A stretch of DNA of 64,000 nt from an uncultured Actinomycetota bacterium (GCA_963717135.1 CAVQVN010000009.1:632269-696268); one strand, 5' to 3'; numbered from the stretch's first letter, positions 23,954-38,508 are shown. Notes: generated by a model not told the origin, from the letters alone. Translations and numbers: made by a program.

Positions 23954-23971
23954 GCGACCTATCAAGAACAG
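23954..23971. promoter_or_regulatory. Motif CGACCTATCAAGAACA (half-site-like) ~50 bp upstream of amidase start; near-identical copy at 56391-56408
   Basis: Seen directly. Function unknown. Confidence 0.3.
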
Positions 23972-24015
23972 CTAGCCAAGCGCACATAGACAGAATCGAG
24001 AGAACTGGAGTGCTC

Positions 24016-25446
24016 ATGTCCGACGAACTCAGTCACCTCAGTGCGACTGAAGCACTCGCTTTGTTCCGCAGCCGGGAGCTTGCGCCGCTAGAACTCCTCG
24101 AAGCGGTGATGGCCCGTGCCCACGCTACCGAGCCGCTCGTCAATGCCTTCATGGATACCTACTTCGATGAGGCTCGCCAACAGGCAGAAGCAGCGGGTGA
24201 GGCGTACGCAACGGGAACGGCCAGGCCTTTGGAAGGTCTGCCGATCGCCGCCAAGGACGAACCCCGGGTCGACGGGAGACGGTGGACTCAGGGTTCCCTG
24301 CTCTTCGAGAACGAGATTGCCTCTGGGACCGACCCGATCACCGAGCGGGTTCTCGATGCCGGCGGCATCATCCACGCCCACACGACGACTCCGGAATTCT
24401 CAATGGCAATCGTTACGTGGACCTATCTCCACGGAATCACCAGGTCCCCCTGGAACCCGGCCATGACGTCGGGCGGTTCATCCGGAGGATCGGGGGCCAG
24501 CCTGGCATCCGGGTCGTCACTGCTGGCGACCGGGAGTGATATCGGCGGATCGATCAGAATCCCCGCCTCCATGAATGGAGTGGTCGGGTTCAAGCCACCC
24601 TGGGGTCGGGTCCCCGAATTCTGGCCGTGGAACCGTGAGCCGTACGCCGCTTCCGGGCCAATGGGGCGGACGGTAAAAGACGTCATCTTGTTTGAGAACG
24701 CCCTCTCCGGACCGCTGCCCGGCGACATGTTCTCATCGCCGCCACTCGACGTGCCGACCGATTTGCCCCCCGTCGGCGGAATGCGAATCGCTCTGAGCGC
24801 CGATCTTGGCTACTTCAACCCGGACGGTGAAATCGTCAACGCTCTGGAGTCGACCGCCGCCCAACTGCGCGAACTCGGGGCGGTGGTTGATCCGGTTGAC
24901 TTGGCATGGACCGATCAAGCCGAGGACACGGCATTGACGCACCTCTCGTTCCAATCCCGCCCAATCCTGCGCGGGTCGGTTCCCGACGAGTCAGATGACC
25001 GGTTGACTCCCTACATCAGGGAATTCCTCCAGCGGCCTCCCGTGTCCGTAGAGGAGTGGATGGAGAGCTGGCGCTACGCCGATGAGATGTACGAAGAACT
25101 GCAAAGCAAAGTGTTCCTGGCCGGCTACGACGCGTTGATCTGCCCGACACTGGTTACCACCTCCATCCCCGCCGATCTCGGTCATCCGGACTCAGGTTCG
25201 ACGAGCGATCTCGGCGAGCAACTGAAGCTCGTCATGACGTACCCGTTCAACATCCTTGGGCGGCTTCCGGTAGTCAACGTTCCCATCGGACTCGCTCCGA
25301 GCACCGGGGTTCCGATCGGGATGCAGATCGTCGGTCCGGTCGATGCCGATGCCATTCCCTTCCGGGTGGCTCTGGGACTCGAGGCAGAGTCCGGCAATCT
25401 CTTCGAGCATCATCGGCCGAGCCTGGGTCAACCGATCAGGAACTGA
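24016..25446 (+). CDS. Amidase (amidase-signature family)
   Basis: GGSSGGSGA signature with Ser-cisSer-Lys context (…KDEPRVDG…). ATG 24016 preceded by GGAG. Confidence 0.85.
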   Translation: MSDELSHLSATEALALFRSRELAPLELLEAVMARAHATEPLVNAFMDTYFDEARQQAEAAGEAYATGTARPLEGLPIAAKDEPRVDGRRWTQGSLLFENEIASGTDPITERVLDAGGIIHAHTTTPEFSMAIVTWTYLHGITRSPWNPAMTSGGSSGGSGASLASGSSLLATGSDIGGSIRIPASMNGVVGFKPPWGRVPEFWPWNREPYAASGPMGRTVKDVILFENALSGPLPGDMFSSPPLDVPTDLPPVGGMRIALSADLGYFNPDGEIVNALESTAAQLRELGAVVDPVDLAWTDQAEDTALTHLSFQSRPILRGSVPDESDDRLTPYIREFLQRPPVSVEEWMESWRYADEMYEELQSKVFLAGYDALICPTLVTTSIPADLGHPDSGSTSDLGEQLKLVMTYPFNILGRLPVVNVPIGLAPSTGVPIGMQIVGPVDADAIPFRVALGLEAESGNLFEHHRPSLGQPIRN

Positions 25447-26419
25447 TTCCCGCGGCCCGTTCGGCGATCCCGTTGAGGATCTCGAGGACTATCCGGTTGG
25501 CGAGAAACGAAGTGATCGCCCCCGGCCCGTCGTAGGGAGGAGATACCTCGACGATGTCGGCGCCCACGATGTTCAACTCTCGAGCCATCCTCCGGACCGA
25601 ATCGAGAATCTGCCGGCTGGTGAGACCGCCCGGTTCGGGGGTGCCCGTGCCGGGTGCCATTCCTGGATCCACGACGTCGATGTCGATCGACAGGAACACG
25701 CCGGTCGCTCCCTCGCCGGCGTAGGCGACCGCCTCGTCGACAACCGGCTTCAGCCCTCGATCTTCGATCTCGGTCATCAGGTAGCCACGCATGCCCTGGT
25801 CGCGCATCCAGGCCACGGTGTCGGGACCCGGCCAATAGCCCCGCAGCCCGATCTGCACGAACCGGTGTCCGGGCACCGCCCCCGATTCGATCAGCCTGCG
25901 CATCGGTGTTCCATGCCCGTAGAGCGATCCGTACCCGGTCATTTCGCCGGTATCCGGGTGGGCATCGAAATGAACGAGCGCCACTTCACCAAATCCAAAC
26001 ACTCGGGCAACTCCGGTGGCATTCGCATAGGTGATCGTGTGATCACCGCCGAGCACGATCGGGATCGAACCCGCCGCGGCCACACGCTCAACGGCGGAGG
26101 TGATGCGTTCCAGATCTCCTTCGATGTCCCCGGGATGCATCTCAACGTCGCCGATGTCGACTACCCCCTCTAGGGCATTGAGCCCGGTCGGGAGATGAGG
26201 CCGGTAGCCGTCGGCAGCGATGTAGTCGCTCTCACGGATGGCTTTCGGCCCGAACCGAGCACCCGGCCGATAGGAGGTGCCCCAGTCAAACGGCGCCCCC
26301 ATGATGACAACCCGGGCTCCCTGGAAGTCCTCGAGGGTGGCAGCCGGAACCCCGGCGAAAGAACTCGCAGCCGCAAAGGCGTGCAGGCGGCCCGACTCGA
26401 ATGGCATTCCAGCATTCAT
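25436..26419 (-). CDS. Ureohydrolase (arginase/agmatinase/guanidino-acid hydrolase family)
   Basis: 327 aa. Mn-binding motifs GGDHTIT, DAHPD, SIDIDVVDP. Confidence 0.85.
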   Translation of the reverse strand: MNAGMPFESGRLHAFAAASSFAGVPAATLEDFQGARVVIMGAPFDWGTSYRPGARFGPKAIRESDYIAADGYRPHLPTGLNALEGVVDIGDVEMHPGDIEGDLERITSAVERVAAAGSIPIVLGGDHTITYANATGVARVFGFGEVALVHFDAHPDTGEMTGYGSLYGHGTPMRRLIESGAVPGHRFVQIGLRGYWPGPDTVAWMRDQGMRGYLMTEIEDRGLKPVVDEAVAYAGEGATGVFLSIDIDVVDPGMAPGTGTPEPGGLTSRQILDSVRRMARELNIVGADIVEVSPPYDGPGAITSFLANRIVLEILNGIAERAAGISS

Positions 26420-26481: not shown

Positions 26482-27603
26482 TCAGCAAGTCGCCAGAGCT
26501 TCCAGGGGCTCGACGTATTGATAGCCGAGTGCTCGAGCAACGTGCTCTTCGGTGACCTTGCCCTTGCAGACGTTGAGCCCTCCCAGCAAATGCTCATCGT
26601 CGAGCATCGCCTGCTTGGCTCCCTTGTCGGCCAGCGCCAGCGTAAACGGCAAGGTGGCGTTGTTGAGGGCATACGTTGACGTGCGCGGCACTGCTCCCGG
26701 CATGTTGGCAACGCAGTAGTGCACGATGTCGTCGACCACGTAGGTGGGATCTTCATGCGTGGTCGGGCGGGATGTTTCGAAGCAGCCGCCCTGATCGATG
26801 GCCACGTCGACCACGACTGAACCGGGTCGCATACGTTTGATCATGTCGGCGGTGACCAACCGGGGCGCCCGGTCACCCTTGACGAGGACGGCTCCCACCA
26901 CCAGATCGGCATCGAGCACCCACTCTTCCAGTGCCGAGGCGGTCGAGTAGACGGTCTGCAGAGCGGTGCCAAAGCGACGGGCGAGCCGATCGAGGACGGC
27001 GATGTTGTTGTCGAGGACTATGACTTCGGCTCCCAACCCGGCCGCCATCTGGATGGCATGCTCACCAACTACCCCACCGCCGATCACCACGACATTGGCG
27101 GCCTTGACTCCCGGCACTCCACCCAGCAGCAACCCGGATCCCCCGCTGGGGGCTTCCAGGCAATGCGCCCCGGCCTGGATCGACATACGACCGGCCACTT
27201 GCGACATCGGGGCCAACAGGGGCAAACCGCCCTCACGGTCGGTGACGGTCTCATAGGCGATACAGGTGGATCCACTCTCGACGAGTTCCCTCGTCTGATC
27301 GGGGTCGGGAGCAAGATGAAGATAGGTGAAGAGCACCTGATCTTCACCGAGCTGGGCCCGTTCCACAGCCTGCGGTTCCTTGACCTTGACTACCATCTCG
27401 GCCTGGTCCCAGACTTCTGCCGACGATGGAGCGATCCGGGCTCCGGCGGCGACGTATGCTTCGTCGGCCGCGCCGATCCCGATACCTGCACCTGATTCGA
27501 CCAGCACCTGGTGCCCGTGGGCAACGAGCTCTCTGACACTGGCCGGCGTCAGACCGACGCGTCGTTCCGCTTTCTTAATCTCTTTCGGGGCACCAACCAG
27601 CAT
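26482..27603 (-). CDS. ald: Alanine dehydrogenase
   Basis: Start reassigned to ATG 27603 (MLVGAPKEIK…) with a GGAGGT RBS. AlaDH/PNT N- and C-domains, NAD motif VIGGGVVG. Confidence 0.9.
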   Translation of the reverse strand: MLVGAPKEIKKAERRVGLTPASVRELVAHGHQVLVESGAGIGIGAADEAYVAAGARIAPSSAEVWDQAEMVVKVKEPQAVERAQLGEDQVLFTYLHLAPDPDQTRELVESGSTCIAYETVTDREGGLPLLAPMSQVAGRMSIQAGAHCLEAPSGGSGLLLGGVPGVKAANVVVIGGGVVGEHAIQMAAGLGAEVIVLDNNIAVLDRLARRFGTALQTVYSTASALEEWVLDADLVVGAVLVKGDRAPRLVTADMIKRMRPGSVVVDVAIDQGGCFETSRPTTHEDPTYVVDDIVHYCVANMPGAVPRTSTYALNNATLPFTLALADKGAKQAMLDDEHLLGGLNVCKGKVTEEHVARALGYQYVEPLEALATC

Positions 27604-27628
27604 TTCGCTATACCTCCGTTGCGAGCCG

Positions 27629-28843
27629 TCAAGCGGCTGCCAATACGACGCGAATAGACAAGAGCAGCTTATCGATCTGCTCATCGGTGATGACCAGAGG
27701 CGGGCACATTGACATATGGGGCGGAATCGGTCGAATGATCACACCTTCTTTCAGAAGGGCATCGCGGGCGGCGAGCACGTTCACACCGTCGGGCAGCGTG
27801 ATCGCCCACACGGCCCCCTCTCCCCGAACATCGACCACCAGGCCGTCGTCGCGCAATGCGAACAAGCCGGCCGACAACCGTCGGCCGATCTCGGTCGCCC
27901 GGGCCAGCAAGCCCTCGCGCTCCTGAATCTCGATGCACTTGAGGGCGGCGATACACCCGAGCGGATGACCCGAATACGTGTAGCCCGTCCTCAGCACGAA
28001 TCCCTCGTTCGCCTCCAGACCCTCCAGTACCGACGGTCCCACGATGACTCCCGACAACGGCACGTAGCCGGAGGTAACTGCCTTGGCGAAGGTGATCATG
28101 TCCGGGGTGACTCCGTAGAACTGGCTGCCAAACCATTCCCCGAGTCTCCCGAAACCGGTGATAACTTCGTCGAAAATGAGGAAGGCGCCGTACGTGTCGC
28201 ACAGATCGCGGAGGTGTGACAGGTATCCCTCCGGCGGCGGCCACACTCCCCCCGCCCCCTGGACCGGCTCGGTGATGACCGCGGCGATTTCGTCGCCATG
28301 CTCGGCGAAGATCCTCTTCATCGCTTCGTCGTCATCGGCCACCACATTGATGATGCCCGGGACCAATGGACCGAAACCGTCGCGGTTCGGGGCGATACCT
28401 TGCACCGAGGTTCCACCGTAGTTGGTGCCGTGATAGCCCCGCTCCCGGCTGACGATGACGTGCTTGTGGGGATTGCCTGCCTCACGGTGGGCAATCCGGG
28501 CCAGCTTCATCGCAGTGTCGACTGCCTCGGATCCGGAGGAGCCAAAGAACACCCGGGCTCGCTCAAAGGGCGACAGCTCGGCGATCTTGGCGGCCAACTC
28601 CTCGCTGGGCGGGTTCGTGAACGGGTCAAACGTGTGGTACGCCCCCAGTTTCCCGGCCTGTTCGGCTATCGCTTGGGCGATTTCTTCTCTTCCGTAGCCG
28701 ACGTTGGCATACCACAGAGAGCCCATACCGTCGATGTACTCGTTGCCCTGATCGTCGAAAATCAGGGCCCCCCGACCGCCGACGATCGAGATGAACTCGT
28801 CCTTGCGGGGCGGCGTGAATGGGTGCAAAAACGAGCTGGGCAT
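27629..28843 (-). CDS. Class-III aminotransferase, paralog 2
   Basis: Start at ATG 28843 (MPSSFLHPFTPP…) with an AGGAGG RBS. The listed ORF's extra 37 aa are upstream read-through. DEVITGFGRLGEWF block. Confidence 0.85.
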   Translation of the reverse strand: MPSSFLHPFTPPRKDEFISIVGGRGALIFDDQGNEYIDGMGSLWYANVGYGREEIAQAIAEQAGKLGAYHTFDPFTNPPSEELAAKIAELSPFERARVFFGSSGSEAVDTAMKLARIAHREAGNPHKHVIVSRERGYHGTNYGGTSVQGIAPNRDGFGPLVPGIINVVADDDEAMKRIFAEHGDEIAAVITEPVQGAGGVWPPPEGYLSHLRDLCDTYGAFLIFDEVITGFGRLGEWFGSQFYGVTPDMITFAKAVTSGYVPLSGVIVGPSVLEGLEANEGFVLRTGYTYSGHPLGCIAALKCIEIQEREGLLARATEIGRRLSAGLFALRDDGLVVDVRGEGAVWAITLPDGVNVLAARDALLKEGVIIRPIPPHMSMCPPLVITDEQIDKLLLSIRVVLAAA

Positions 28844-28947: not shown

Positions 28948-30081
28948 GTGCCAAAGATCGTCAACTCGTGGAACGAATGGAGCCGTCTCAAGCGAGTCAT
29001 TGTCGGGAGAGCCGACGGGACGATGGTGCAGGCGCCCGAGCCTGCCACGGTGCGCGATTGGCCTCAGTGGGGATTCCCCAAGGGGACCTACGGTCGGTTG
29101 CCGCAGGACATGGAAGACTCAGCCAACGAGCAACTGGACAATTTTGCGGCACTCCTGGAATCTCACGGGGTGGTCGTCGATCGGCCCGAACCGCTTGATT
29201 TCTCCCAGAAGGTCTCCACCCCCGACTGGAAGCAGGATTCGATGTTCGGAGTCATGCCGCCGCGTGACCTGCTACTCACGGTCGGCAATGAGATCCTCGA
29301 AGCGACGATGTCGCAGCGTTCTCGATGGTTCGAGTACCTGGCCTACCGACCTCTTCTCCAGAGCTACTTCGAGCAAGATCCGGAGTTCCGATGGGAAGCC
29401 GCCCCCAAGCCTCGCCTGACCGACGCCTCCTATGTCGACGGCATGGATTTCTGGGAGTACGCCGAGTCCTTCAGCGACGAGGAACAGATCGAACGGTTCA
29501 CCAAGAAGAAGCAGTGGAACCTAACGGAACACGAGCCGCTGTTCGACGCCGCCGACGTTGGGCGATTCGGGAGAGATCTCTTCGTGCAGCGATCCACCGC
29601 TACCAACGGCGCCGGGATCGATTGGCTGCGGCGCCACTACCCGGAGCACCGAATCCACGAGGTCCTCTTCTACGAAGCCCATCCGATGCACATCGACGCC
29701 ACATTCATCCCGCTGCGGCCGGGCCTGGCTTTGAGCAACCGGCAACGCGTTCCGATGACCGACGAAATGGTCAAGCTGTTCGAGATGAACGACTGGGAGA
29801 TAGTGCCGTGTGCGGAGCCGGCCCTCTCGGAGAAGCCGCCACTCTGCTTCTGCAGCGTGTGGCTTTCGATGAACACCCTGTTGCTCGACGAAAACACCAT
29901 ATTCGTGGAGGAATCCGAAAAGGCCCAGCAGCAGCAGTTCTACGAACTCGGTTTCGAGGTGATCCCCGTCCCCTTCTGGGCGGTCGGACCTTTCGGTGGA
30001 GGCTTGCATTGCGCCACCGCCGACGTCTATCGCGAGGGGAAGATGGAGGATTACTTCCCGAAGCAGATTCCCGGTTATTGA
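28948..30081 (+). CDS. Amidinotransferase (glycine/inosamine amidinotransferase family), paralog 2
   Basis: 377 aa, roughly 55-60% identical by eye to paralog 1 over the full length. Same C-terminal …GGGLHCATADV…EDYFPKQIPGY. Confidence 0.85.
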   Translation: MPKIVNSWNEWSRLKRVIVGRADGTMVQAPEPATVRDWPQWGFPKGTYGRLPQDMEDSANEQLDNFAALLESHGVVVDRPEPLDFSQKVSTPDWKQDSMFGVMPPRDLLLTVGNEILEATMSQRSRWFEYLAYRPLLQSYFEQDPEFRWEAAPKPRLTDASYVDGMDFWEYAESFSDEEQIERFTKKKQWNLTEHEPLFDAADVGRFGRDLFVQRSTATNGAGIDWLRRHYPEHRIHEVLFYEAHPMHIDATFIPLRPGLALSNRQRVPMTDEMVKLFEMNDWEIVPCAEPALSEKPPLCFCSVWLSMNTLLLDENTIFVEESEKAQQQQFYELGFEVIPVPFWAVGPFGGGLHCATADVYREGKMEDYFPKQIPGY

Positions 30082-30087
30082 GAGCCA

Positions 30088-30112
30088 TCAGTTGTCAGTC
30101 GTCAGTTATCAG
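30088..30112. repeat. Tandem heptamers cagttgt/cagtcgt/cagttat immediately after stop codon
   Basis: Seen directly. Related to the tracts at 9834-9865 and 33340-33376. Confidence 0.35.
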
Positions 30113-30122
30113 GAGGGTCACC

Positions 30123-31457
30123 ATGAGTAGACGCAAGGTAATCATCATCGGAGCCGCCGGCCGCGACTTCCACAATTTCAACACTCGCTATCGCGACGAC
30201 GAGTCGGTCGAAGTCGTGGCTTTCACCGCCGAGCAGATCCCGGGAATCGAGGGCCGCACGTACCCCGCCGAGCTGGCCGGACCGCTCTATCCGGGCGGCA
30301 TCCGGATCTACGCCGAAGAGGAGCTACCCCGCCTCATCGATGAGCTGGACGTGGATGAGTGTGCGTTCTCCTACAGCGACGTCTCCTACCAGCACGTGAT
30401 GGGGGTCTCGGCCATCGTTCAAGCCGCCGGAGCGTCCTTCACGCTGCTCGGACCCGGCGATACTCAGATCAAGAGCATCAAACCGGTGATCTCGGTATGC
30501 GCCATCCGGACCGGCTCGGGCAAGTCCCAGACCTCGCGCAAAGTCGTCGAGACGCTGATGGCCAAGGGCCTCAAGGTGGTCGCCATCCGCCATCCCATGC
30601 CCTACGGAGATCTCTCTGCCCAGAAGGTTCAACGCTTCGCCGAGCTGGCCGACCTCGAGAAGCATGATTGCACCATCGAGGAGATGGAGGAGTACGAGCC
30701 GCACATCGTGCGCGGCAACGTCATCTACGCGGGTGTGGACTACGAAGCCATCATCCGGGCTGCCGAGACCGACCCGGATGGCTGCGATGTCATAGTGTGG
30801 GACGGCGGAAACAACGACTTCTCGTTTTACCAAGCCGACCTGGCCATCACCGTCGTCGATCCGCACCGACCCGGCCATGAGCTTCGCTACTACCCCGGTG
30901 AGGTCAACCTCCGCACCGCCGATGTCGTCGTGATCAACAAGATCGATTCGGCCGATCTGGCCGGAATCGAAACCGTGCGCCGCAACATCGCCAAGGTCAA
31001 CCCAACCGCCAGGGTGATCGATGCTGCGTCAACGCTGCGACTCGAAGACCCCTCGGTGGTAGCCGGCCGGCGGGTGCTGGCGATCGAAGACGGGCCGACT
31101 CTGACTCACGGAGAGATGAAGATCGGCGCCGCGGTGGTGGCCGCCACCAAGTACGGAGCGACCGAATTCGTTGATCCCCGCCCGTTCCTGGTCGGGAAGC
31201 TGAAGGAGACCTTCGAGATCTACCCCAACATCGGAACGATCCTGCCGGCCATGGGCTACGGCGAAGAGCAGCTTCGTGACCTCGAAGCAACCATCAACGC
31301 CGCCGATTGTGACGCCGTCGTGATCGGCACTCCGATCGATCTTGCCCGGATTGTGCACATCGAAAAGCCCCACACGCGCGTGTTCTACGATCTGCAGGAA
31401 ATTGGCGAGCCGACTCTGACCGGTGTGCTCGAGGACTTCGTCGCCAAACTGGGATAA
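30123..31457 (+). CDS. P-loop-containing protein resembling the cyclic 2,3-diphosphoglycerate synthetase (cPGS) family (assignment tentative)
   Basis: 444 aa from ATG 30123 (AGGAGGG RBS). N-terminal KVIIIGAAGRDFHNFN Rossmann-like segment and P-loop-like AIRTGSGKSQTS. The family is recalled from memory, not verified. Confidence 0.55.
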   Translation: MSRRKVIIIGAAGRDFHNFNTRYRDDESVEVVAFTAEQIPGIEGRTYPAELAGPLYPGGIRIYAEEELPRLIDELDVDECAFSYSDVSYQHVMGVSAIVQAAGASFTLLGPGDTQIKSIKPVISVCAIRTGSGKSQTSRKVVETLMAKGLKVVAIRHPMPYGDLSAQKVQRFAELADLEKHDCTIEEMEEYEPHIVRGNVIYAGVDYEAIIRAAETDPDGCDVIVWDGGNNDFSFYQADLAITVVDPHRPGHELRYYPGEVNLRTADVVVINKIDSADLAGIETVRRNIAKVNPTARVIDAASTLRLEDPSVVAGRRVLAIEDGPTLTHGEMKIGAAVVAATKYGATEFVDPRPFLVGKLKETFEIYPNIGTILPAMGYGEEQLRDLEATINAADCDAVVIGTPIDLARIVHIEKPHTRVFYDLQEIGEPTLTGVLEDFVAKLG

Positions 31458-31527
31458 CGTGAACCAGGTTGGTCGGTGGACCGTCGCCGGCCAACCTCTT
31501 GGTCGAGACAACAGATGGAGGGGTGAC

Positions 31528-33339
31528 GTGGCGACAATCCTGAAGCCTGCGACCGAATTCGAAGTGAGCCGGTATTCCGTTGACCTGACCGATCAGACGG
31601 TACGGCATGAGACCGTCCGGTGCGAGGATCTCGAGGATGCTCTGGGTGGGATCGCCCGGGCTACCAAACTGCTGGCCGACCTCACGGTCGAAGATCCGTA
31701 CGATCCGGCGGCGCCCCTCGTGATGAACCTCGGGCTCTTGAGCGGAACCCAGGTGATGACCGGGTTGCGAACCTTCTTTCACGGCTACTCGCCTCTCAAA
31801 CAGGCGGTGAACGGCCAACCCGGGCTGATGTGGTCGGCCGGGAGCGGACATTTCGGCACCAAACTGCGCGGACTCGGGATCGACGAGGTCATCTTCACGG
31901 GCCGAGCGGACCGGCCCACCCTGCTGTATCTAGCTCCCGGCGGCGAAGAGGGGTCCGCTCACTTTCAATTCCTCGACGCAACCGACCTCACCGGCCGAAC
32001 CGTAAACGACCGGATTCAGGACCTGCACGGTCGGTATCCCGAGGCGCATTTCGCGGTGATCGGCCCGGCCGGGGAGCACTACGAATCGGTGCGCTTCGCC
32101 TCGATAGCCCTTTCCACGGACAATCAGCTGGAGAGCGGCGACGGCAAGCCCCGCTTCTGCGGGCGAGGCGGCTACGGAGGGGTGATGGCATCCAAGAACC
32201 TGTGGGCCATTGCCGCCGACGGGCCCAACCCGCCGCGGGCTCGCGGCCTGAAGGAAATCAACCGGGAGATCAACCTGGGCGAAGGCAGTGCCCGTTACCG
32301 GGACCTCGAACACGATCGGGGCGGCACCTGGCGAACTATGAAAATGATGCAGGAAGCTCAGTCGCTGCCCGAGTTCAACTTCGCCCCGACCGGCACCGAC
32401 GCCTCAGTTCCGCTGCTCCGGCCCAGCGTTGAGGAAGGACCCTACGTCGTGCAGGCGGAGGGGTGCTACCTGTGCGGGATCAAGTGCCACAAGAACGTTT
32501 TCGATCGGCTCGACGATGGCGAAGCCGGCACCTTTCGAGCCAAGGTCGACTTCGAGCCCATCACTCTGCTGTCCTCCAACCTGGGAATCTTCGATCCCGA
32601 TGTGGCGTTTTCCCTCATCGAGCTCACCGACGAATTGGGCATGGACTCGATCTCACTCGGTGTCACGCTGGGTTATGCGATGGATAACAACCGCCGCACC
32701 GGATCCCGCCTCCTCGGGGGACTGGCATTCTCCGACCCGGCCGGCGTCACCGAGGCGATCCGGGCGGTGGCCGCCGGACGGCTGCCCGAGTTGGGACAGG
32801 GTGTCAAGCGGCTGTCGGAGCAGGCGGGAGAAACCGCCTACGCCATGCATTCCAAAGGACTCGAGTATCCGGCCTACCAGCCGCACACGAACCCGGGATT
32901 TCCGTGGGCCCTGGCCGGCGGTCACATGTCGATGCGGACCTTTTTCCTCTACGTCATCGAGCGCGAGACCGGGGTTGATTACTGGGTCGACGCCATCACC
33001 AACCGGGGGCCCCTCTACTTGATGGACGACATCACCGGGCTGTGCAAGTTCGCCAATGTCGGTCCCGACTTCGAAGCCGAGGCGCTCCGGATCGCCACGG
33101 GTTTGAATATCACCGGCGAGCAACTCGCGGCGACCGTGATGCGGACCTTCCTGCGCGGCTATGCCTGTGAGCGACGATCCGGATTCGGCACCGACGACTA
33201 CCGGCTGCCCGCGGCAGCCCACGAGCCGATGGAGGGTTCCAACCTGCCGCACTTCAACACGTCCGAGTTCTTCGAAGAGGTGCAGTCGCGGGTGATGGAA
33301 ACCCTAGACCACCGCGCGGTCGAAGCCGGATTCATGTAG
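31528..33339 (+). CDS. Aldehyde:ferredoxin oxidoreductase (AOR) family tungsto/molybdo-pterin enzyme, copy 1
   Basis: 603 aa from GTG 31528 (GGAGG 6 nt upstream). AFOR_N-like start (ATILKPATEFEVSRYSVDLTDQTV…), GRGGYGGVMASKNLWAIA block, and CYLCGIKC (C-x2-C-x3-C), the [4Fe-4S] ligand spacing of AOR. Confidence 0.8.
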   Translation: MATILKPATEFEVSRYSVDLTDQTVRHETVRCEDLEDALGGIARATKLLADLTVEDPYDPAAPLVMNLGLLSGTQVMTGLRTFFHGYSPLKQAVNGQPGLMWSAGSGHFGTKLRGLGIDEVIFTGRADRPTLLYLAPGGEEGSAHFQFLDATDLTGRTVNDRIQDLHGRYPEAHFAVIGPAGEHYESVRFASIALSTDNQLESGDGKPRFCGRGGYGGVMASKNLWAIAADGPNPPRARGLKEINREINLGEGSARYRDLEHDRGGTWRTMKMMQEAQSLPEFNFAPTGTDASVPLLRPSVEEGPYVVQAEGCYLCGIKCHKNVFDRLDDGEAGTFRAKVDFEPITLLSSNLGIFDPDVAFSLIELTDELGMDSISLGVTLGYAMDNNRRTGSRLLGGLAFSDPAGVTEAIRAVAAGRLPELGQGVKRLSEQAGETAYAMHSKGLEYPAYQPHTNPGFPWALAGGHMSMRTFFLYVIERETGVDYWVDAITNRGPLYLMDDITGLCKFANVGPDFEAEALRIATGLNITGEQLAATVMRTFLRGYACERRSGFGTDDYRLPAAAHEPMEGSNLPHFNTSEFFEEVQSRVMETLDHRAVEAGFM

Positions 33340-33376: not shown

Positions 33377-35311
33377 TCACCTCTCGAATCCCATCCGGCG
33401 AAGGCCTTCGACCACGCGACCATCATCAAGCAGCTCCCGGAGAGCGGCGACCGCCGGGCGATCCCAACGCGGTTCGGGAACGGCAAAGTCGAACTGCTCG
33501 TCCTGTAGGAAGCGGAAGGTCAGTCCGGCGGCTTCCGCTACCGTGTCGAGGGTTACTCCCCAGTCCGCTCTCCCCTGCTCGACCGCCGCCACCACCGCGT
33601 GGTGGGTCCTGGGTTGATGCAGATACCCCTCGGGCCTGCTCCCGTCGAGTAATTGATCGATGAGAACCCGGGTTCCACTACCCGGGTTCCGGTTGACCAT
33701 CCGGTACGGACCACTTCGGAGGATTCCCGAGAGGTCTTCACCGTCGGCTTGTACCAGTTCATGGTCGTCGGATCGGAAGACGATCCCCTGGCGCCGCCGG
33801 TATCCGCGCAGCAGCCGAACCCCGGGCGGCAAGAAGGGCGTGTTGTACTCACCGGTCTCCTCATCCATCAGGTGGATACCGGCCAGGTCGGCCTCTCCCC
33901 GGCCTACTGCGGTCAGACCACCGGTGGATCCCACCGGCACCATCTTGACGCGGTATCCCCGGTCGGCCAGCCGGCCGAGCAGATAATCCAGACCGACACA
34001 GTGACTCCCGATGACGACCAGGTCGGCCGGACGCAACTCTGGATGCAGCAGATGGACCTCAACCAGAGCCCCCTCATCGATGAACTCCGTCGAGTCGGGG
34101 ATCCGGATGAAACCATCCGCCCGTCCGAACGCGGTCACGCTCCCCGAACCGGCCCCCTGGGGGTAAGCCGCCAGACCGGTAGGTCCCTCCACCAGGTCGA
34201 CCAGGTTGTACTCGGTCCTCCCGGGGGCCGAGGTGATGCGCAAAGGCACGGTCGCTTGCACGATCCCCCGCTCGCCGGTGGGCAAACCGGCCAGCCGGCG
34301 TAGCAAGGGCGCTACGAACTCGTGAAACGTAAATATGGCGGAGGTAGGAAAGCCGGGCAGCACCACCACCGGAATCCCCGAAACAACCGCCAGCAAGACG
34401 GGCTTGCCCGGCTTGAGAGCCACCCCGTGCACAACGATGCCGGCGGAATCGGGCAATCGTTCCGCCAGCTTCTGCACCACGGTGGAGTTGAGATCTCCTT
34501 CCCCCTTGGACGTTCCGCCCGACAACAGCACGACATCCACAGCCTCGGGCCCGGAGACCAGCCCCTCAATCGTTCGCGAGAGCAACGCCTCGTCGTCGGG
34601 AATGATCCCCCCCGCCACCGGCCGGCAACCGAGTTCGGCAACTGCGTCCGCCAGCATGCGCTGGTTGGAGTCAAATACCTGGCCTACTTCGAGAAGCCGT
34701 CCCGGTTCCACGATTTCGTCACCGGTCGACACCACCGCCACCCGCGGGCGGGCGATCACGTCGACCTGGACGACCCCGATCGCCGCCAGCACGCCGGTCT
34801 CGCGCGAACTGAGGTGGGTACCGCGCCGCATCACCGTATCGCCCCGACCGATATCGGATCCGGCGAAAGTGATGTTCCCACCCGGAACCGCCGGTCGGAC
34901 CACTCCGATGCCGTTCGGGTGGGGTTCGGTGTGCTCCACCATCAGCACTGCGTCCGCCCCCCGCGGGACCACTCCGCCGGTGGCCACCGCCACGGCCTCC
35001 CCGGAACTCACCTCGAAACCCACCGGGGGTGCTTGCCCGGCCACGAGCGAGATATCTGCAACAGACAGCACGATCGGGGCCAGTTCCTCGGCCCCGAAGG
35101 TGTCTTCGGCCCGCACGGCATACCCGTCCATGTTGCTCCGATCGAAAGCAGTTACATCGACGCCGGAGACGACATCGTCCGCCAGAACTCGCCCCAAAGC
35201 CGAATCCAGGCGGATGGTCTCGCGGCGCGGCCGCAGGTGGGCGCAGGCGGCCTCGAATCGCCGGTGGGCCACCGATTCGTCGACCACATCGAGAAACTGT
35301 CTCTGTCTCAT
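33377..35311 (-). CDS. Molybdopterin molybdenum/tungsten-transferase MoeA fused to a C-terminal periplasmic-binding-protein-like (oxyanion-binding-like) domain
   Basis: Start at ATG 35311 (ATGA overlap with the upstream gene). MoeA blocks (FDRSNMDGYAV, GGTSKGEGD, …GLPGFPTSA…) followed by ~190 aa of PBP-like domain (…MVPVGSTGGL…). Confidence 0.8.
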   Translation of the reverse strand: MRQRQFLDVVDESVAHRRFEAACAHLRPRRETIRLDSALGRVLADDVVSGVDVTAFDRSNMDGYAVRAEDTFGAEELAPIVLSVADISLVAGQAPPVGFEVSSGEAVAVATGGVVPRGADAVLMVEHTEPHPNGIGVVRPAVPGGNITFAGSDIGRGDTVMRRGTHLSSRETGVLAAIGVVQVDVIARPRVAVVSTGDEIVEPGRLLEVGQVFDSNQRMLADAVAELGCRPVAGGIIPDDEALLSRTIEGLVSGPEAVDVVLLSGGTSKGEGDLNSTVVQKLAERLPDSAGIVVHGVALKPGKPVLLAVVSGIPVVVLPGFPTSAIFTFHEFVAPLLRRLAGLPTGERGIVQATVPLRITSAPGRTEYNLVDLVEGPTGLAAYPQGAGSGSVTAFGRADGFIRIPDSTEFIDEGALVEVHLLHPELRPADLVVIGSHCVGLDYLLGRLADRGYRVKMVPVGSTGGLTAVGRGEADLAGIHLMDEETGEYNTPFLPPGVRLLRGYRRRQGIVFRSDDHELVQADGEDLSGILRSGPYRMVNRNPGSGTRVLIDQLLDGSRPEGYLHQPRTHHAVVAAVEQGRADWGVTLDTVAEAAGLTFRFLQDEQFDFAVPEPRWDRPAVAALRELLDDGRVVEGLRRMGFER

Positions 35312-36813
35312 CCGGCAGCCCATGAGTCGTAGAGATGAACCTCCACCTCGGCTCCCTCCGCGTATCCCTCCAGACCGGCCGGAACCACCACAAACCCGGA
35401 CGCCCGGGTCACCGAGGACAGAACCGACGCTCCCGAGATGGCGAGAGGACGAACCCCGTCGCCCTCGATCTGGACCCGGGCGTAGTCGGTACGGCCAATC
35501 TGCGACACCAGACGTTTGGCAAGGGGCAGGCGGCGGGAGAGGTACGGCCACGCTTCCGGCAGCCCGCCCAACCTCCGGATGACCGGTCCCGCAAAGAAGT
35601 CGTATGCCACCAAACAGGAGACCGGATTGCCCGGCAGGATCAGCACCGGCCGGCCACCGATCCTTCCCACCCCGGTCGGCGAGGAGGGTCGCATGGCCAC
35701 CCCGTGGATAACCAACTCGCCCAGCTCGTCCACCAGCACGGGAACACGATCTTCGGCACCTACCGAGGCCGCCCCGGCGGTCAAAATGACGTCTGTTCCG
35801 GAGCGAGCGAGCGCCTCGCGCATCGCCTCCTGATTGTCGGGGAGCCGCACGACTTCGGCCTGCCCCCCGTCCCGCTCGATCAAGGCGGCCAACATCGGCG
35901 AGTTGCTATCAACGATGCTGGTGCCGTGCGGCTGTTCGCCGGGAGCCACCAGCTCGTTGCCCGAGACGATCACCAGTACCAGCGGTCGCCGAACCACCGA
36001 AACCGGATGATGTCCGATCGATGCCAGCAAGCCAACGTCCTGGGGCAAGAGCCGGCGCCCGTCGGTGAGCGCGAGGTCGCCGATCTCGATGTCCTCGCCG
36101 ATCCGCCCGACATTCCGATCCCGAGCGACCGGAGCCCGGACCTCGACAATTCGATCCCTTTCGGTCGTATCCTCGGCCCGCAGGACCGCATCTGCTCCTT
36201 GGGGCAGCGGGGCGCCGGTCATGATCCGCATCGACGAGCCCCGCTCCACCGAGATGTCGGGCGTAGACCCGGGAAGGGACTCGCCGATCACCGTCAGGTG
36301 TACCGGCGAATAGGCCGAAGCCCCATAGGTGTCGTCGGCCTGCACGGCATAGCCGTCCATGGTGGCCCGGCGAAAGGCCGGGACGGCCACCCGGCTGATC
36401 ACGTCGCCTGCCAGAACCCGGCCGGCCGCCTCCCCGACCGGGACCGTTTCCGGGGGAAGTCGTTGGACTCCGGCCAGAGCGGCGCTCCGGGCTTCCCCCA
36501 CGGTGGCCCGGTGTCGGAACCCGCGCATCCGAACGTCTTCGGCTCCACCGACGACATTGATGATCACCTCGAGCCGATCGTCCGGTCCGACCGACGTGCC
36601 GGCCTGAACATCCCGCAACACCTGGCGACCGTTGTGGAATAGGGACAGGTGGGCATGCAGGAGACCGTCGGTATCGAACAGGCGAAGCTCCAGGTCTGGA
36701 TGCGCGGCGGTCGCCGCCCGGAGGGCCGCCGTGACCGTCGGGGCGTCCACCTCGAGGTATTCATAACCCGATGCATACTTGCGCAGCAGCTTGGGAAGAC
36801 GCACGGTCACCAT
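35308..36813 (-). CDS. MoaD/ThiS-like β-grasp domain fused in-frame to MoeA (molybdopterin metal-transferase)
   Basis: N-terminal ~85 aa (MVTVRLPKLL…VIINVVGG) is MoaD-like, including the Gly-Gly. It continues without a stop into MoeA blocks (FRRATMDGYAV, …LTAGAASVGAEDRV…, GNPVSC). Start at 36813 or 36822 (uncertain). Confidence 0.75.
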   Translation of the reverse strand: MVTVRLPKLLRKYASGYEYLEVDAPTVTAALRAATAAHPDLELRLFDTDGLLHAHLSLFHNGRQVLRDVQAGTSVGPDDRLEVIINVVGGAEDVRMRGFRHRATVGEARSAALAGVQRLPPETVPVGEAAGRVLAGDVISRVAVPAFRRATMDGYAVQADDTYGASAYSPVHLTVIGESLPGSTPDISVERGSSMRIMTGAPLPQGADAVLRAEDTTERDRIVEVRAPVARDRNVGRIGEDIEIGDLALTDGRRLLPQDVGLLASIGHHPVSVVRRPLVLVIVSGNELVAPGEQPHGTSIVDSNSPMLAALIERDGGQAEVVRLPDNQEAMREALARSGTDVILTAGAASVGAEDRVPVLVDELGELVIHGVAMRPSSPTGVGRIGGRPVLILPGNPVSCLVAYDFFAGPVIRRLGGLPEAWPYLSRRLPLAKRLVSQIGRTDYARVQIEGDGVRPLAISGASVLSSVTRASGFVVVPAGLEGYAEGAEVEVHLYDSWAAG

Positions 36814-36823
36814 GCCGGGCATC

Positions 36824-37390
36824 CTACGAGGAGCGTCGCGCGATTCGCCGGGCATACAGAGCGCCACCGGCGCGCCACATCGCCCACCCCAGCATTCCGC
36901 CGGCGGCGCCAAAGACGAGATGGTTGGCCAGGGCGCCCAGAAAGCCGAATACCTCGACGCGCCGCAGTATGTCGGAGATCCAGGCGTTGGCGAACACAAA
37001 TCCAAACTTGGCGAGGTGGATGACGACCCCGGCCAAGGATGCTCCCCACAGGCGTCGCATGGGCAGACGCAGCAGCGTCCCGGAGTCCAGGAGGCTTCCG
37101 GCCAGGCCGTACAGCATCATGTTGTAGCCAATCGAATGGCCCACGCCGATCGGGACTCCCCACAGTCCCATCGAAAGCCCGGCCACCGTGGCCATTCCGG
37201 CGCGCCCGTTGAGCAGACGGCCGGAAACCAGCACGGCAATCCACCCGACCCCGGCGTGGCCCGGGATGCCCAGGTGGAAGTCCAGATATCTTTTGGCGAG
37301 GGTTGCCACCAAGCCGACGGCCACTGCCAGGACCAGGTCGACCGAAAGCGATCGCGGCCGGGTTGATCTACTTCGAGCGAGTGTCTGCAT
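36824..37390 (-). CDS. Hypothetical integral membrane protein
   Basis: 188 aa, 5-6 predicted hydrophobic helices. Located inside the AOR-2 / moeA operon. No family recognised. Confidence 0.45.
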   Translation of the reverse strand: MQTLARSRSTRPRSLSVDLVLAVAVGLVATLAKRYLDFHLGIPGHAGVGWIAVLVSGRLLNGRAGMATVAGLSMGLWGVPIGVGHSIGYNMMLYGLAGSLLDSGTLLRLPMRRLWGASLAGVVIHLAKFGFVFANAWISDILRRVEVFGFLGALANHLVFGAAGGMLGWAMWRAGGALYARRIARRSS

Positions 37391-38096: not shown

Positions 38097-38508
38097 CGAC
38101 GTCCCTCACCCATTGCTCACGCGGGAGATCTGCGGTGGCCAGTTTGAGTGTGCCCTGTTTGGTGACGTCGAGGATCCACCCGTCATCGACCTGCGTGGAA
38201 GTGATTTCGAGGGTGACTTCAACGACGCGCCCCTCCCCCATGCCGAACACCTCGGCCGTGTCCCACTCTTCCACGTCGGAGGCAGCGAGCACGTCGAGGA
38301 GCCGCGGTCCGGATTGATCGTCCCCGTCGATCGTCATCGAAACGAACTCGACCTGGCTTTCCAGATCGGCCAGTGTCCAGTCGCCCACCACCTTCCCGGC
38401 CAACACGACCCGCAGGACGACGTCATCGGCCGGTGGTTCGGTCGCGTCGGTCGCACACCCGGCCATGACGACCATCGCCACCACCACCACCACCCAGATC
38501 CGCTTCAC
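38077..38508 (-). CDS. Hypothetical small lipoprotein
   Basis: A GTG start at 38508 overlaps the AOR-2 stop (GTGA). The N-terminus VKRIWVVVVVAMVVMAGC… is a lipoprotein signal peptide. The listed ORF's extra 123 N-terminal aa are Arg-rich out-of-frame overlap with AOR-2. Confidence 0.45.
   Translation of the reverse strand: MKRIWVVVVVAMVVMAGCATDATEPPADDVVLRVVLAGKVVGDWTLADLESQVEFVSMTIDGDDQSGPRLLDVLAASDVEEWDTAEVFGMGEGRVVEVTLEITSTQVDDGWILDVTKQGTLKLATADLPREQWVRDVGEISIP

What the first reader, a model, noticed from the sequence alone, without database searches (positions are those of the whole stretch)
28948..33339. Operon linking amidinotransferase-2, a cPGS-like P-loop protein and a tungsten-type aldehyde:ferredoxin oxidoreductase; no NAD-dependent aldehyde dehydrogenase in the island
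Amidinotransferase-2 (to 30081), a 444-aa P-loop protein (30123-31457, RBS AGGAGGG) and AOR copy 1 (31528-33339, C-x2-C-x3-C cluster motif) are co-directional with 41- and 70-nt spacers.
ω-Aminotransferases produce aldehydes (aminobutanal/guanidinobutanal-type). The window has two AOR-family genes but no classical aldehyde dehydrogenase. This suggests a tungsten/molybdenum pterin enzyme oxidises the amine-derived aldehydes, which would be an unusual arrangement for an actinobacterial-type genome.
The middle gene resembles the archaeal cyclic-2,3-diphosphoglycerate synthetase family, but this is from memory only.
Basis: partly seen in the sequence, partly recalled or inferred. Interest (0 to 1): 0.7.

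Follow-up and report, generated by a model that had tools for sequence, protein, structure and literature searches.

The report
Amidinotransferase, arginine synthetase and tungsten oxidoreductase operon
The three genes are real and probably co-transcribed, but the middle 'cPGS-like' gene is a bacterial copy of the recently discovered ATP-forming arginine synthetase (ArcE), and its repeated pairing with an amidinotransferase suggests an undescribed, energy-conserving way to break down guanidino compounds.

Summary
Three co-directional genes sit at 28948-30081, 30123-31457 and 31528-33339. The spacers are 41 and 70 nt, ribosome-binding sites are present, and no terminator-like site lies between them.

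Gene 1 is an AGAT-type L-arginine amidinotransferase.

Gene 2 is not a cyclic-2,3-diphosphoglycerate synthetase (16% identity to the solved enzyme). It belongs to the ArcE arginine synthetase family (Arg + ADP + Pi <-> Cit + NH3 + ATP). It is 63-78% identical to homologs encoded next to carbamate kinase and/or ornithine carbamoyltransferase, and 46% identical to an archaeal homolog from a genus named in the ArcE paper.

Gene 3 is a very divergent AOR-family enzyme that keeps its cofactor-binding motifs.

The ArcE-AOR link exists only in one Acidimicrobiia clade: 8 of its 14 sampled sources, against 0 of 158 other loci. The amidinotransferase-ArcE link recurs in three different gene orders, including AT-OTC-ArcE-CK.

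My model is inferred, not shown. The amidinotransferase moves amidino groups from a guanidino compound onto ornithine. ArcE harvests the resulting arginine. The freed amine goes through the aminotransferase, alanine dehydrogenase and an aldehyde oxidiser, here possibly AOR1.

I judge this a new variant of a known pathway.

The parts
28948..30081 (+). AT-2: AGAT-type L-arginine:X amidinotransferase, 377 aa
   Evidence: Human AGAT 1jdx matches at E=1.6e-78 over residues 5-370; SxtG, HsvA and StrB1 also match. The catalytic Asp/His/Cys (DAAD, HID, HCAT) are invariant in alignment A4. The AGAT residues D170, D305, R322 and S355 are conserved in the alignment, and Asn300 is replaced by His.
30123..31457 (+). 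ArcE-type arginine synthetase homolog (the 'cPGS-like P-loop protein'), 444 aa
   Evidence: It is 63-78% identical to homologs adjacent to CK and/or OTC. It matches all 119 columns that are invariant among 35 such homologs. It is 46% identical to the Hyperthermus butylicus homolog. The AF2 model has pLDDT 91.9, and its closest folds are cPGS at 16% identity and LpxK.
31528..33339 (+). AOR1: divergent tungsten-type aldehyde:ferredoxin-oxidoreductase family protein, 603 aa
   Evidence: Pfam finds AFOR_N and AFOR_C. The four [4Fe-4S] cysteines and both pterin motifs (DELGMDS, D..GLCKF) align with P. furiosus AOR. The best PDB match is only E=1.9e-26.
27629..28843 (-). Class-III omega-aminotransferase, divergent from AT-2; true start is the ATG at 28843, 404 aa
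   Evidence: Aminotran_3 matches at 1.8e-90, and the best NCBIfam hits are omega-amine:pyruvate-type families. The start is read from the sequence, with an AGGAGG ribosome-binding site, and the ortholog is 404 aa.
26482..27684 (-). Alanine dehydrogenase
   Evidence: TIGR00518 scores 506 bits against a cut-off of 392.
25436..26419 (-). Agmatinase-family ureohydrolase (guanidino-compound hydrolase)
   Evidence: Pfam Arginase matches at 1.2e-85, and TIGR01230 agmatinase scores 196 against a cut-off of 174.
23224..25446 (+). TetR regulator (23224-23937) and amidase (24010-25446)
9873..23117 (-). AT-1 operon: amidinotransferase-1, class-III aminotransferase, Amidohydro_3, agmatine-deiminase-like protein, N-carbamoylputrescine-amidase-like protein, Opp-type ABC importer, second Amidohydro_3
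33377..37005 (-). Two MoeA metal insertases. The first (33377 to about 35311) is fused to a PBP-like oxyanion-binding domain; the second runs from 35308 to about 36816.
   Evidence: Pfam MoeA_N, MoCF_biosynth, MoeA_C and PBP_like; PRK14498 at 5e-206. Ortholog lengths are 644 and 501 aa.
36824..38520 (-). Three small genes without Pfam families: a membrane protein, a 242-aa protein with a GIDDTD N-terminus, and a lipoprotein-like protein
   Evidence: They are conserved in L164 and L165.
38505..40462 (-). AOR2: canonical AOR-type enzyme, frameshifted near 39840 in this assembly
   Evidence: AFOR_C and AFOR_N fall in two different frames. tblastn with the intact 652-aa L163 ortholog shows the frame change. 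That ortholog matches 1aor at E=1.2e-104.
42109..44635 (-). Tungstate-type ABC transporter (binding protein, ATPase with TOBE domain, permease)
   Evidence: The best NCBIfam hits are TupA, WtpC and TupB, all below the curated cut-offs.

Best explanation
The region is part of a guanidino-compound and amine catabolic island of an Acidimicrobiia bacterium.

**What the genes are (shown)**
- Gene 1 is an AGAT-type amidinotransferase that uses the arginine/ornithine pair.
- Gene 2 is an ortholog of ArcE arginine synthetase, which interconverts arginine + ADP + Pi and citrulline + NH3 + ATP. It is not a cPGS.
- Gene 3 is a cofactor-competent but very divergent tungsten-type AOR-family oxidoreductase.

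**How it works (inferred)**
1. The amidinotransferase runs 'backwards'. It moves the amidino group of an imported guanidino compound onto ornithine, giving arginine and a free amine.
2. ArcE deiminates the arginine and makes ATP.
3. OTC and carbamate kinase turn citrulline back into ornithine with a second ATP. These two genes lie outside this window but sit in the same operon in relatives. Ornithine therefore acts as a catalytic carrier.
4. The divergently encoded omega-aminotransferase transaminates the freed amine with pyruvate, and alanine dehydrogenase recycles the alanine.
5. The resulting aldehyde is oxidised. In this clade AOR1 probably does this, in place of an NAD-dependent aldehyde dehydrogenase.
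For: **ArcE identity**
- The family is annotated 'predicted GTPase' or 'cPGS'.
- In 158 loci outside the clade, carbamate kinase is present in 34 and an OTC/ATC-type gene in 26.
- The CK and OTC calls pass the NCBIfam cut-offs.
- A natural fusion of a carbamate-kinase-like AA_kinase domain with ArcE exists (P0126).
- The window protein matches 119 of 119 columns invariant in 35 CK/OTC-linked homologs.
- It is 46% and 44% identical to the Hyperthermus and Pyrodictium homologs. The ArcE paper names both genera as carrying arcE. The paper also reports the 'GTPase' annotation, arcB/arcC linkage, an LpxK-like fold and weak cPGS similarity (PMC11032458). All four were reproduced here.

**Amidinotransferase-ArcE coupling**
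- The pair recurs in three gene orders: AT-ArcE in Acidimicrobiia (window, L001, L002, L083, L163, L168); AT-OTC-ArcE(-CK) in L084 and L086; and ArcE-AT-Na+/solute symporter(-ArcC) in L032 and L060.
- L165 keeps a 47-aa remnant of the amidinotransferase.

**Catabolic setting**
- The window also encodes two class-III aminotransferases, AlaDH, a ureohydrolase, an amidase, AguA/AguB-like enzymes and an ABC importer.

**Aldehyde step**
- The window has no Aldedh gene.
- Relatives carry Aldedh, Fe-ADH or an SDR at the equivalent place.
Against: - No OTC or carbamate kinase lies in the 64-kb window, or in any locus of the Acidimicrobiia clade. The ornithine cycle has to be closed by genes I could not see.
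- No TK2200 sequence was available, so ArcE orthology rests on intermediates.
- The direction of the amidinotransferase is not determinable from sequence.
- The island also has a ureohydrolase and a deiminase-type route. Either could degrade guanidino compounds without the amidinotransferase.
- AOR1 adjacency is clade-restricted, and AOR1's substrate is unknown.
- No ferredoxin gene motif was found in the window.
- L164, L165 and L170 keep ArcE without an intact amidinotransferase.
Confidence: 0.45

Rival explanations
1. Biosynthetic cycle. ArcE makes arginine from citrulline, NH3 and ATP so that the amidinotransferase can keep donating amidino groups to an amine. This builds a guanidino compound such as an osmolyte or natural product. 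The aminotransferase, AlaDH and possibly AOR1 (running as an acid reductase) supply the amine acceptor.
For: ArcE is reversible and can support arginine synthesis in vivo (PMC11032458). Characterised bacterial AGAT homologs (SxtG, StrB1, HsvA) are biosynthetic. AT, OTC, ArcE and CK also form a closed cycle in this direction.
Against: Carbamate kinase did not supply carbamoyl phosphate at growth-supporting levels in T. kodakarensis (PMC13260591). L032 and L060 pair the genes with a solute symporter. The window is dominated by hydrolases, an importer and a TetR regulator, as in catabolic islands. Acid reduction by an AOR needs low-potential ferredoxin, and no such gene is seen.
Confidence: 0.2
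2. Juxtaposition only. ArcE serves plain arginine catabolism or nitrogen release. The amidinotransferase and AOR1 have unrelated roles, and the gene order in this clade is inherited rather than functional.
For: All AOR-linked loci carry ArcE proteins 81% or more identical to the window protein, so they are close relatives. ArcE persists without the amidinotransferase (L164, L165, L170) and without AOR1 (L001, L002, L170).
Against: AGAT-type amidinotransferases lie next to ArcE in three different gene orders and in at least three phyla. Spacers are short and no terminator-like site is present.
Confidence: 0.25
3. The P-loop protein is a nucleotide-dependent maturation factor for the tungsten cofactor or the AORs. 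It would act like MobB or the CobW/HypB/UreG chaperones, working with the neighbouring MoeA proteins.
For: In L170/L171 the only conserved neighbours of the P-loop gene are MoeA-PBP, MoeA and an AOR. The protein has weak cobW and HypB similarity. MobB, a GTP-binding accessory protein, is required with MoeA1 for tungsten insertion in M. extorquens (PMC13197769).
Against: None of the 158 loci outside the clade has an AOR or MoeA gene nearby, while CK and OTC are common. The window protein shows no divergence at positions invariant in CK/OTC-linked homologs: 119 of 119, and 162 of 165 in a second set. It is convergent with the MoeA genes, not co-transcribed with them.
Confidence: 0.07
4. The P-loop protein is a true cyclic-2,3-diphosphoglycerate synthetase, as NCBI names it and.
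For: The source names say so. cPGS is the best structural match in the PDB.
Against: Identity to cPGS is only 16% with TM 0.44, and phmmer gives E=1e-3 over 100 residues. The host is a bacterium, whereas cDPG is reported only from hyperthermophilic methanogens (PMC10690619 abstract). The family context is CK and OTC, not glycolytic or 2-phosphoglycerate kinase genes.
Confidence: 0.02

Closest known systems
Arginine synthetase ArcE (TK2200) and the arginine synthetase pathway ArcE-ArcB-ArcC of Thermococcus kodakarensis (Michimori et al. 2024, PMC11032458; PMC13260591)
   Same: The protein family is the same: about 440 aa, an LpxK-like P-loop fold, 'GTPase' annotation and remote cPGS similarity. 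Close homologs of the window protein sit in operons with OTC and carbamate kinase, and one is fused to a carbamate-kinase-like domain.
   Different: In this clade the gene is not next to OTC or CK. It sits between an amidinotransferase and an AOR-family gene. An amidinotransferase as an entry enzyme to the pathway was not found in the searchable literature. The host is a mesophilic-type, high-GC actinobacterium rather than a hyperthermophilic archaeon.
Cyclic 2,3-diphosphoglycerate synthetase of Methanothermus fervidus (PDB 8ORU, 8ORK, 9SXB)
   Same: It shares the overall multi-domain P-loop architecture and is the best PDB fold match (E=1.9e-15).
   Different: Identity is 16%, TM is 0.44, and rmsd is about 15 A over the full alignment. 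The taxon and the gene context are different.
L-arginine:glycine amidinotransferase (AGAT) and bacterial relatives SxtG, HsvA, StrB1
   Same: AT-2 matches AGAT over its full length (E=1.6e-78), with the catalytic Cys-His-Asp and the arginine/ornithine-binding residues conserved.
   Different: The partner substrate is unknown. The proposed physiological direction (guanidino compound + ornithine -> arginine) is the reverse of the characterised biosynthetic roles. Asn300 of the AGAT lid is His here.
Tungsten aldehyde:ferredoxin oxidoreductases (P. furiosus AOR 1AOR, Aromatoleum AOR 8C0Z, BmWOR of the aerobe Brevibacillus massiliensis, PMC9424855)
   Same: AOR1 has the AFOR_N and AFOR_C domains, the four cluster cysteines and both pterin motifs. 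Tungstate-type transporter and MoeA genes lie nearby.
   Different: AOR1 is far from every solved subfamily (E about 1e-26). The neighbouring AOR2 is the canonical type (1e-104). No ferredoxin or other electron-transfer subunit gene is seen.
Putrescine/GABA-type amine catabolism with omega-amine:pyruvate aminotransferase plus alanine dehydrogenase and an NAD-dependent aldehyde dehydrogenase
   Same: A class-III aminotransferase and AlaDH are adjacent and co-directional. Relatives L001 and L085 carry Aldedh genes in the same neighbourhood.
   Different: The 64-kb window has no Aldedh gene. Two AOR-family genes are present instead.

Membership tests
ArcE arginine synthetase | Full-length sequence homology to archaeal ArcE (TK2200 and its homologs) | tested here: met
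   46% identity at E=7e-140 to the Hyperthermus butylicus homolog, and 44% to the Pyrodictium occultum homolog. PMC11032458 names both genera as arcE carriers. Caveat: the TK2200 sequence itself could not be obtained.
ArcE arginine synthetase | Gene linkage with arcB (OTC) and/or arcC (carbamate kinase), in the family | tested here: met
   Among 158 homolog loci outside the clade, CK is present in 34 and an OTC/ATC-type gene in 26. OTC-ArcE-CK occurs in L085 and L086, whose ArcE is 77-78% identical to the window protein. The CK and OTC calls are above NCBIfam cut-offs. A CK-like::ArcE fusion exists (P0126).
ArcE arginine synthetase | Gene linkage with arcB/arcC, in this window | tested here: not met
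   No OTC or CK homolog lies in the 64-kb window or in any of the 14 clade sources. The rest of the genome was not available.
ArcE arginine synthetase | P-loop kinase fold related to LpxK, with only low similarity to cPGS | tested here: met
   The AF2 model has pLDDT 91.9. Foldseek gives cPGS at 16% identity, then LpxK 4EHY. This matches the description of TK2200.
ArcE arginine synthetase | Conservation of family-invariant residues | tested here: met
   119 of 119 columns invariant in 35 CK/OTC-linked homologs are identical in the window protein.
ArcE arginine synthetase | Catalysis of Arg + ADP + Pi <-> Cit + NH3 + ATP | not testable with these tools
   This needs an enzyme assay.
Cyclic 2,3-diphosphoglycerate synthetase (cPGS) | Close sequence relationship to the characterised M. 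fervidus enzyme | tested here: not met
   phmmer gives E=1.2e-3 over about 100 residues. Foldseek gives 16% identity and TM 0.44.
Cyclic 2,3-diphosphoglycerate synthetase (cPGS) | Host is a hyperthermophilic methanogen that makes cDPG | tested here: not met
   The nearest proteins carry Acidimicrobiia names, and the window is 60-68% GC. cDPG is reported exclusively in hyperthermophilic methanogens (PMC10690619 abstract).
Cyclic 2,3-diphosphoglycerate synthetase (cPGS) | Conserved 2,3-DPG-binding residues | not tested
   No residue-level structural alignment was made.
AGAT-type amidinotransferase | Full-length homology to AGAT/StrB1-type enzymes | tested here: met
   1jdx at E=1.6e-78 over residues 5-370; SxtG, HsvA and StrB1 also match.
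AGAT-type amidinotransferase | Catalytic Cys-His-Asp triad and arginine/ornithine-binding residues | tested here: met
   DAAD, HID and HCAT are invariant in A4. The equivalents of D170, D305, R322 and S355 are conserved in the alignment. N300 is His.
AGAT-type amidinotransferase | Amidino transfer activity and identity of the second substrate | not testable with these tools
   This needs an enzyme assay.
AOR family (tungsten bis-pyranopterin oxidoreductases) | AFOR_N and AFOR_C domains, four [4Fe-4S] cysteines, two pterin-binding motifs | tested here: met
   Pfam gives 6.8e-39 and 2.8e-40. The alignment to 1aor shows CxxCxxxC, the fourth Cys in GLCKF, DELGMDS, and the GRGG motif.
AOR family (tungsten bis-pyranopterin oxidoreductases) | Placement in a characterised aldehyde-oxidising subfamily (AOR, FOR, GAPOR, WOR5 and others) | tested here: inconclusive
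   AOR1 is equidistant from AOR and FOR (E about 2e-26) and further from the others. AOR2 scores 1.2e-104 against AOR. No phylogeny was built.
AOR family (tungsten bis-pyranopterin oxidoreductases) | Tungsten rather than molybdenum in the active site | not testable with these tools
   Context only: the transporter's best hits are TupA/TupB/WtpC, below cut-off, and a MoeA-PBP fusion is present.
MobB / G3E-type cofactor maturation NTPase | Family membership by sequence | tested here: not met
   There is only a partial cobW hit covering 65 residues (24.8 bits) and a HypB match at E=4e-3. The full-length architecture is that of ArcE.

The most novel reading that the evidence does not exclude
An amidinotransferase-primed arginine synthetase cycle, in which ornithine acts as a catalytic carrier. 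The amidino group of an environmental guanidino compound (for example guanidinobutyrate, guanidinoacetate, agmatine or taurocyamine) is transferred to ornithine. It is then dismantled by ArcE, OTC and carbamate kinase, yielding up to two ATP, two NH3 and CO2 without releasing urea. In this Acidimicrobiia clade, a divergent tungsten AOR replaces the NAD-dependent aldehyde dehydrogenase for the carbon skeleton.
Probability: 0.3. Interest if true: 0.75.

Novelty: new variant of a known kind. Interest (0 to 1): 0.55.

Why it matters
- **Annotation.** A large, highly conserved bacterial protein family is currently named 'cyclic 2,3-diphosphoglycerate synthase' or 'GTPase' in public annotation. The representative search found 3,735 clusters at E<=1e-3. 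The evidence here places these bacterial proteins with ArcE, an enzyme described only in 2024 and characterised in only one archaeon.
- **Pathway.** The recurrent linkage with AGAT-type amidinotransferases gives a concrete, testable hypothesis for a new entry route into the arginine synthetase pathway. It also suggests how bacteria could obtain nitrogen and ATP from guanidino compounds without urea.
- **AOR.** The work narrows the AOR claim. If AOR1 does oxidise amine-derived aldehydes, it would extend tungsten enzymology into Actinomycetota amine catabolism. The current support for that is clade-limited synteny plus the lack of an ALDH gene in the window.

Tried and rejected
- **Exact look-up of the window protein.** P0001 was not on record, so the source contig could not be extended.
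- **Genome scan with the 21-sequence alignment.** I repeated it with 6 sequences.
- **Both big scans hit the 600-stretch limit.** They returned mostly cross-phylum homologs rather than close relatives. I sampled close relatives one at a time instead.
- **AFDB fold search.** This was meant to tie the model to TK2200, but the library was not installed.
- **Cluster look-up of ten distant representatives.** It gave no Thermococcus entry. The third homolog search reached named Desulfurococcales but not Thermococcales.
- **The ArcE paper's supplement.** It is not held.
- **Rfam scans.** I looked for guanidine or Moco riboswitches. The scans found only a tRNA and one chance-level hit.
- **Ferredoxin motif scan.** Nothing was found.
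- **Promoter and terminator scan.** It found nothing beyond the chance level.
- **AT-2 as an ArgZ-type arginine dihydrolase.** I considered this and rejected it. Only AGAT-type chains match in the PDB.
- **cPGS and MobB/G3E readings.** I rejected both as the main reading, for the reasons given under the rival explanations.

Full report
**1. Observation**

- AT-2 is at 28948-30081 (GTG start, 377 aa).
- The P-loop gene is at 30123-31457 (ATG start, 444 aa, AGGAGGG 5 nt upstream).
- AOR copy 1 is at 31528-33339 (GTG start, 603 aa, GGAGGGG upstream).
- The spacers are 41 and 70 nt.
- The consensus scan finds no terminator-like site between the genes.
- The C-x2-C-x3-C motif is CYLCGIKC.

Pfam scans of essentially all plausible ORFs of the 64-kb window found no aldehyde dehydrogenase domain. 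A tblastn with an ALDH from a related locus found none either.

A second AOR gene exists at 38505-40462 on the - strand. In this assembly it is broken by a frameshift near 39840.

The names attached to near-identical proteins place the window in Acidimicrobiia.

**2. Gene 1**

AT-2 matches human L-arginine:glycine amidinotransferase over its whole length (1jdx, E=1.6e-78). It also matches SxtG, HsvA and StrB1.
- The catalytic Asp, His and Cys are invariant in an alignment with its paralog AT-1 and with relatives from other loci.
- The AGAT residues that hold arginine/ornithine (D170, D305, R322, S355) are conserved in the alignment. Asn300 of the lid is His.

It is therefore an AGAT-type enzyme that most likely still uses the arginine/ornithine pair. 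Its other substrate is unknown.

**3. Gene 2 is ArcE, not cPGS**

Pfam gives only a partial cobW hit, and NCBIfam gives nothing. Public sources call the protein 'predicted GTPase' or 'cyclic 2,3-diphosphoglycerate synthase'.

Against solved structures, the sequence match to cPGS is marginal: E=1.2e-3 over 100 residues.

A confident AlphaFold model (pLDDT 91.9) finds cPGS as the best PDB fold, but at 16% identity and TM 0.44. LpxK follows.

I tested the gene-context criterion on 171 fetched loci plus the window.
- Outside the window's own clade (158 loci), carbamate kinase is present in 34 and an OTC/ATC-type gene in 26.
- Carbamate kinase is most often directly downstream on the same strand.
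- The calls were confirmed with NCBIfam above the curated cut-offs.
- The closest non-clade relatives (77-78% identity) are arranged OTC-ArcE, OTC-ArcE-CK or AT-OTC-ArcE-CK.
- One representative (P0126) is a natural fusion of a carbamate-kinase-like domain to the ArcE domain.

The window protein shows no sign of a changed function.
- It is identical at all 119 columns that are invariant among 35 CK/OTC-linked homologs.
- It is identical at 162 of 165 columns invariant among 45 other non-clade homologs. The three differences are conservative.
- It is 46% and 44% identical over its full length to the homologs of Hyperthermus butylicus and Pyrodictium occultum. The ArcE paper lists both genera as arcE carriers.

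I could not obtain TK2200 itself, so that last step is indirect. I put the ArcE family assignment at about 0.85-0.9, and the cPGS reading at about 0.02.

**4. Gene 3**

AOR1 has both AOR domains. In the alignment with P. furiosus AOR it has the three clustered cysteines, the fourth cysteine, both pterin-binding motifs and the GRGG arginine. It looks cofactor-competent.

It is very far from every solved family member: E about 2e-26 to AOR and FOR, and weaker to the rest. The intact ortholog of AOR2 scores 1.2e-104 against P. furiosus AOR. AOR1's substrate class therefore cannot be read from homology.

The surroundings are tungsten-flavoured.
- There is a MoeA fused to a PBP-like domain, and a second MoeA.
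- There are three small conserved genes of unknown family, then AOR2.
- There is an ABC transporter whose best matches are TupA, TupB and WtpC. All of these are below the curated cut-offs.
- No ferredoxin-type motif occurs in the window.

**5. Which links are conserved**

Within the clade whose ArcE is 81% or more identical (14 sources, several of them near-duplicates):
- AOR1 follows ArcE in the window, L083, L163, L164, L165 and L168/L169.
- The amidinotransferase precedes ArcE in the window, L001, L002/L166/L167, L083, L163 and L168/L169.
- L165 retains a 47-residue remnant of the amidinotransferase.
- L170/L171 have ArcE next to MoeA-PBP, MoeA and an AOR only.

Outside the clade, no locus has an AOR or MoeA gene (0 of 158). 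An AGAT-type amidinotransferase is adjacent in L032 (Dehalococcoidales), L060 (Peptococcaceae), L086 and, cut by the contig end, L084. The two new gene orders are ArcE-AT-Na+/solute symporter(-ArcC) and AT-OTC-ArcE(-CK).

The amidinotransferase-ArcE coupling has therefore been assembled more than once. The ArcE-AOR coupling may be inherited synteny.

**6. Mechanism proposed**

What is shown:
- the identities of the three proteins at family level;
- the operon-like layout;
- the recurrence of amidinotransferase with ArcE, OTC and CK.

What is inferred:
- Amidinotransfer is freely reversible. This is established knowledge for AGAT, not tested here.
- ArcE, OTC and CK pull arginine towards ornithine, CO2, NH3 and ATP. 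The amidinotransferase can therefore load amidino groups from a guanidino compound onto ornithine, and the cycle regenerates ornithine.
- A solute symporter sits in two of the cassettes. The window's context is catabolic: ureohydrolase, amidase, AguA/AguB-like enzymes, an Opp-type importer and a TetR regulator. Both favour the degradative direction.
- The amine left behind fits the divergently transcribed omega-aminotransferase with alanine dehydrogenase.
- The aldehyde so formed needs an oxidiser. The window has no ALDH. Relatives have Aldedh (L001, L085), Fe-ADH (L084) or an SDR (L002) at the equivalent place.

It remains plausible but unproven.

**7. Weak points**
- No OTC or CK gene is in the window or in any clade locus.
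- The direction of flux is unknown.
- The substrate is unknown.
- The island has alternative guanidino-degrading enzymes.
- AOR1 is unclassifiable.
- ArcE survives without its two neighbours in some relatives.

The rivals are a biosynthetic cycle, mere juxtaposition, a tungsten-cofactor maturation NTPase, and true cPGS. They are weighed in their own sections. The maturation idea has a literature precedent in MobB (PMC13197769). It is contradicted by the complete lack of AOR or MoeA context outside the clade and by the undisturbed ArcE-invariant positions.

**8. Novelty**

ArcE and its pathway are known (2024, 2026). Tungsten AORs in aerobes are known (PMC9424855). Full-text searches found no paper linking arginine synthetase with an amidinotransferase.

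I classify the finding as a new variant of a known kind. It comes with a useful annotation correction for a very large family: 3,735 representative clusters at E<=1e-3.

Noticed in passing
window 38505-40462 (- strand), break near 39840: The canonical AOR gene (AOR2) is split into two reading frames. AFOR_N lies in 39581-40462 and AFOR_C in 38505-40049. The L163 ortholog is an intact 652-aa protein. This is either an assembly indel or a pseudogene.
   Followed up: partly
window 36824-38520 (- strand); L164 12601-14291: Three small genes without Pfam families lie between MoeA and AOR2 and are conserved in L164 and L165. One is a 188-aa membrane protein. One is a 242-aa protein starting with a GIDDTDMP motif and weakly matching 'methanogenesis marker protein 11' (E=6e-8). 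One is a lipoprotein-like protein of about 146 aa. They may be accessory subunits or maturation factors of the AOR.
   Followed up: partly
window 9873-23117 (- strand): A second, roughly 13-kb co-directional gene string is headed by amidinotransferase-1. It contains a class-III aminotransferase, Amidohydro_3, an agmatine-deiminase-like protein, an N-carbamoylputrescine-amidase-like protein, a five-gene Opp-type ABC importer and a second Amidohydro_3. The island thus holds three kinds of guanidino-modifying enzyme.
   Followed up: partly
window 42109-44635 (- strand): The best matches of this ABC transporter are tungstate systems (TupA, TupB, WtpC) rather than ModABC, though all are below the curated cut-offs. 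The listed ORFs overlap because the mechanical ORF starts run too far upstream.
   Followed up: partly
L165 9776-9916: A 47-residue remnant, 85% identical to the N-terminus of AT-2, lies just upstream of ArcE in a relative that otherwise lacks the amidinotransferase. This indicates recent gene loss.
   Followed up: yes
L003-L005, L020, L022, L033, L036, L041, L042, L047, L138 (Bacteroidales-type loci): In these loci ArcE is flanked by a divergent arginyl-tRNA synthetase gene (10 loci). In about 8 to 10 of them an aspartate-carbamoyltransferase catalytic-plus-regulatory pair (PyrB-like, PyrI) lies downstream. This fits the reported role of ArcE in supplying carbamoyl phosphate for pyrimidines (PMC13260591).
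   Followed up: partly
L059, L063, L066, L070, L080, L155, L157, L161 and others: Succinyl-CoA synthetase alpha and beta genes lie downstream of ArcE or of ArcE-CK in 13-14 loci. This association is unexplained.
   Followed up: no
P0126 and P0247 (representatives): P0126 is a fusion of a carbamate-kinase-like domain with ArcE. P0247 carries a LAGLIDADG intein upstream of its ArcE-homologous part (residues 505-802).
   Followed up: partly
Source names: NCBI names many bacterial and crenarchaeal members of this family 'cyclic 2,3-diphosphoglycerate synthase'. The evidence here indicates that this is an over-annotation of ArcE-family proteins.
   Followed up: yes
L170 6915-7805 and 5607-6758: In one relative the region upstream of ArcE is replaced by a TIR-domain gene and an LtrA-family gene. 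This suggests an insertion that displaced the aminotransferase and amidinotransferase genes.
   Followed up: no
window 27629-28954, 33377-35551, 35308-37005, 26482-27684: The mechanical ORF starts are too far upstream compared with orthologs. The likely true lengths are 404 aa (aminotransferase, ATG at 28843), 644 aa (MoeA-PBP), about 501 aa (MoeA) and 373 aa (AlaDH).
   Followed up: partly
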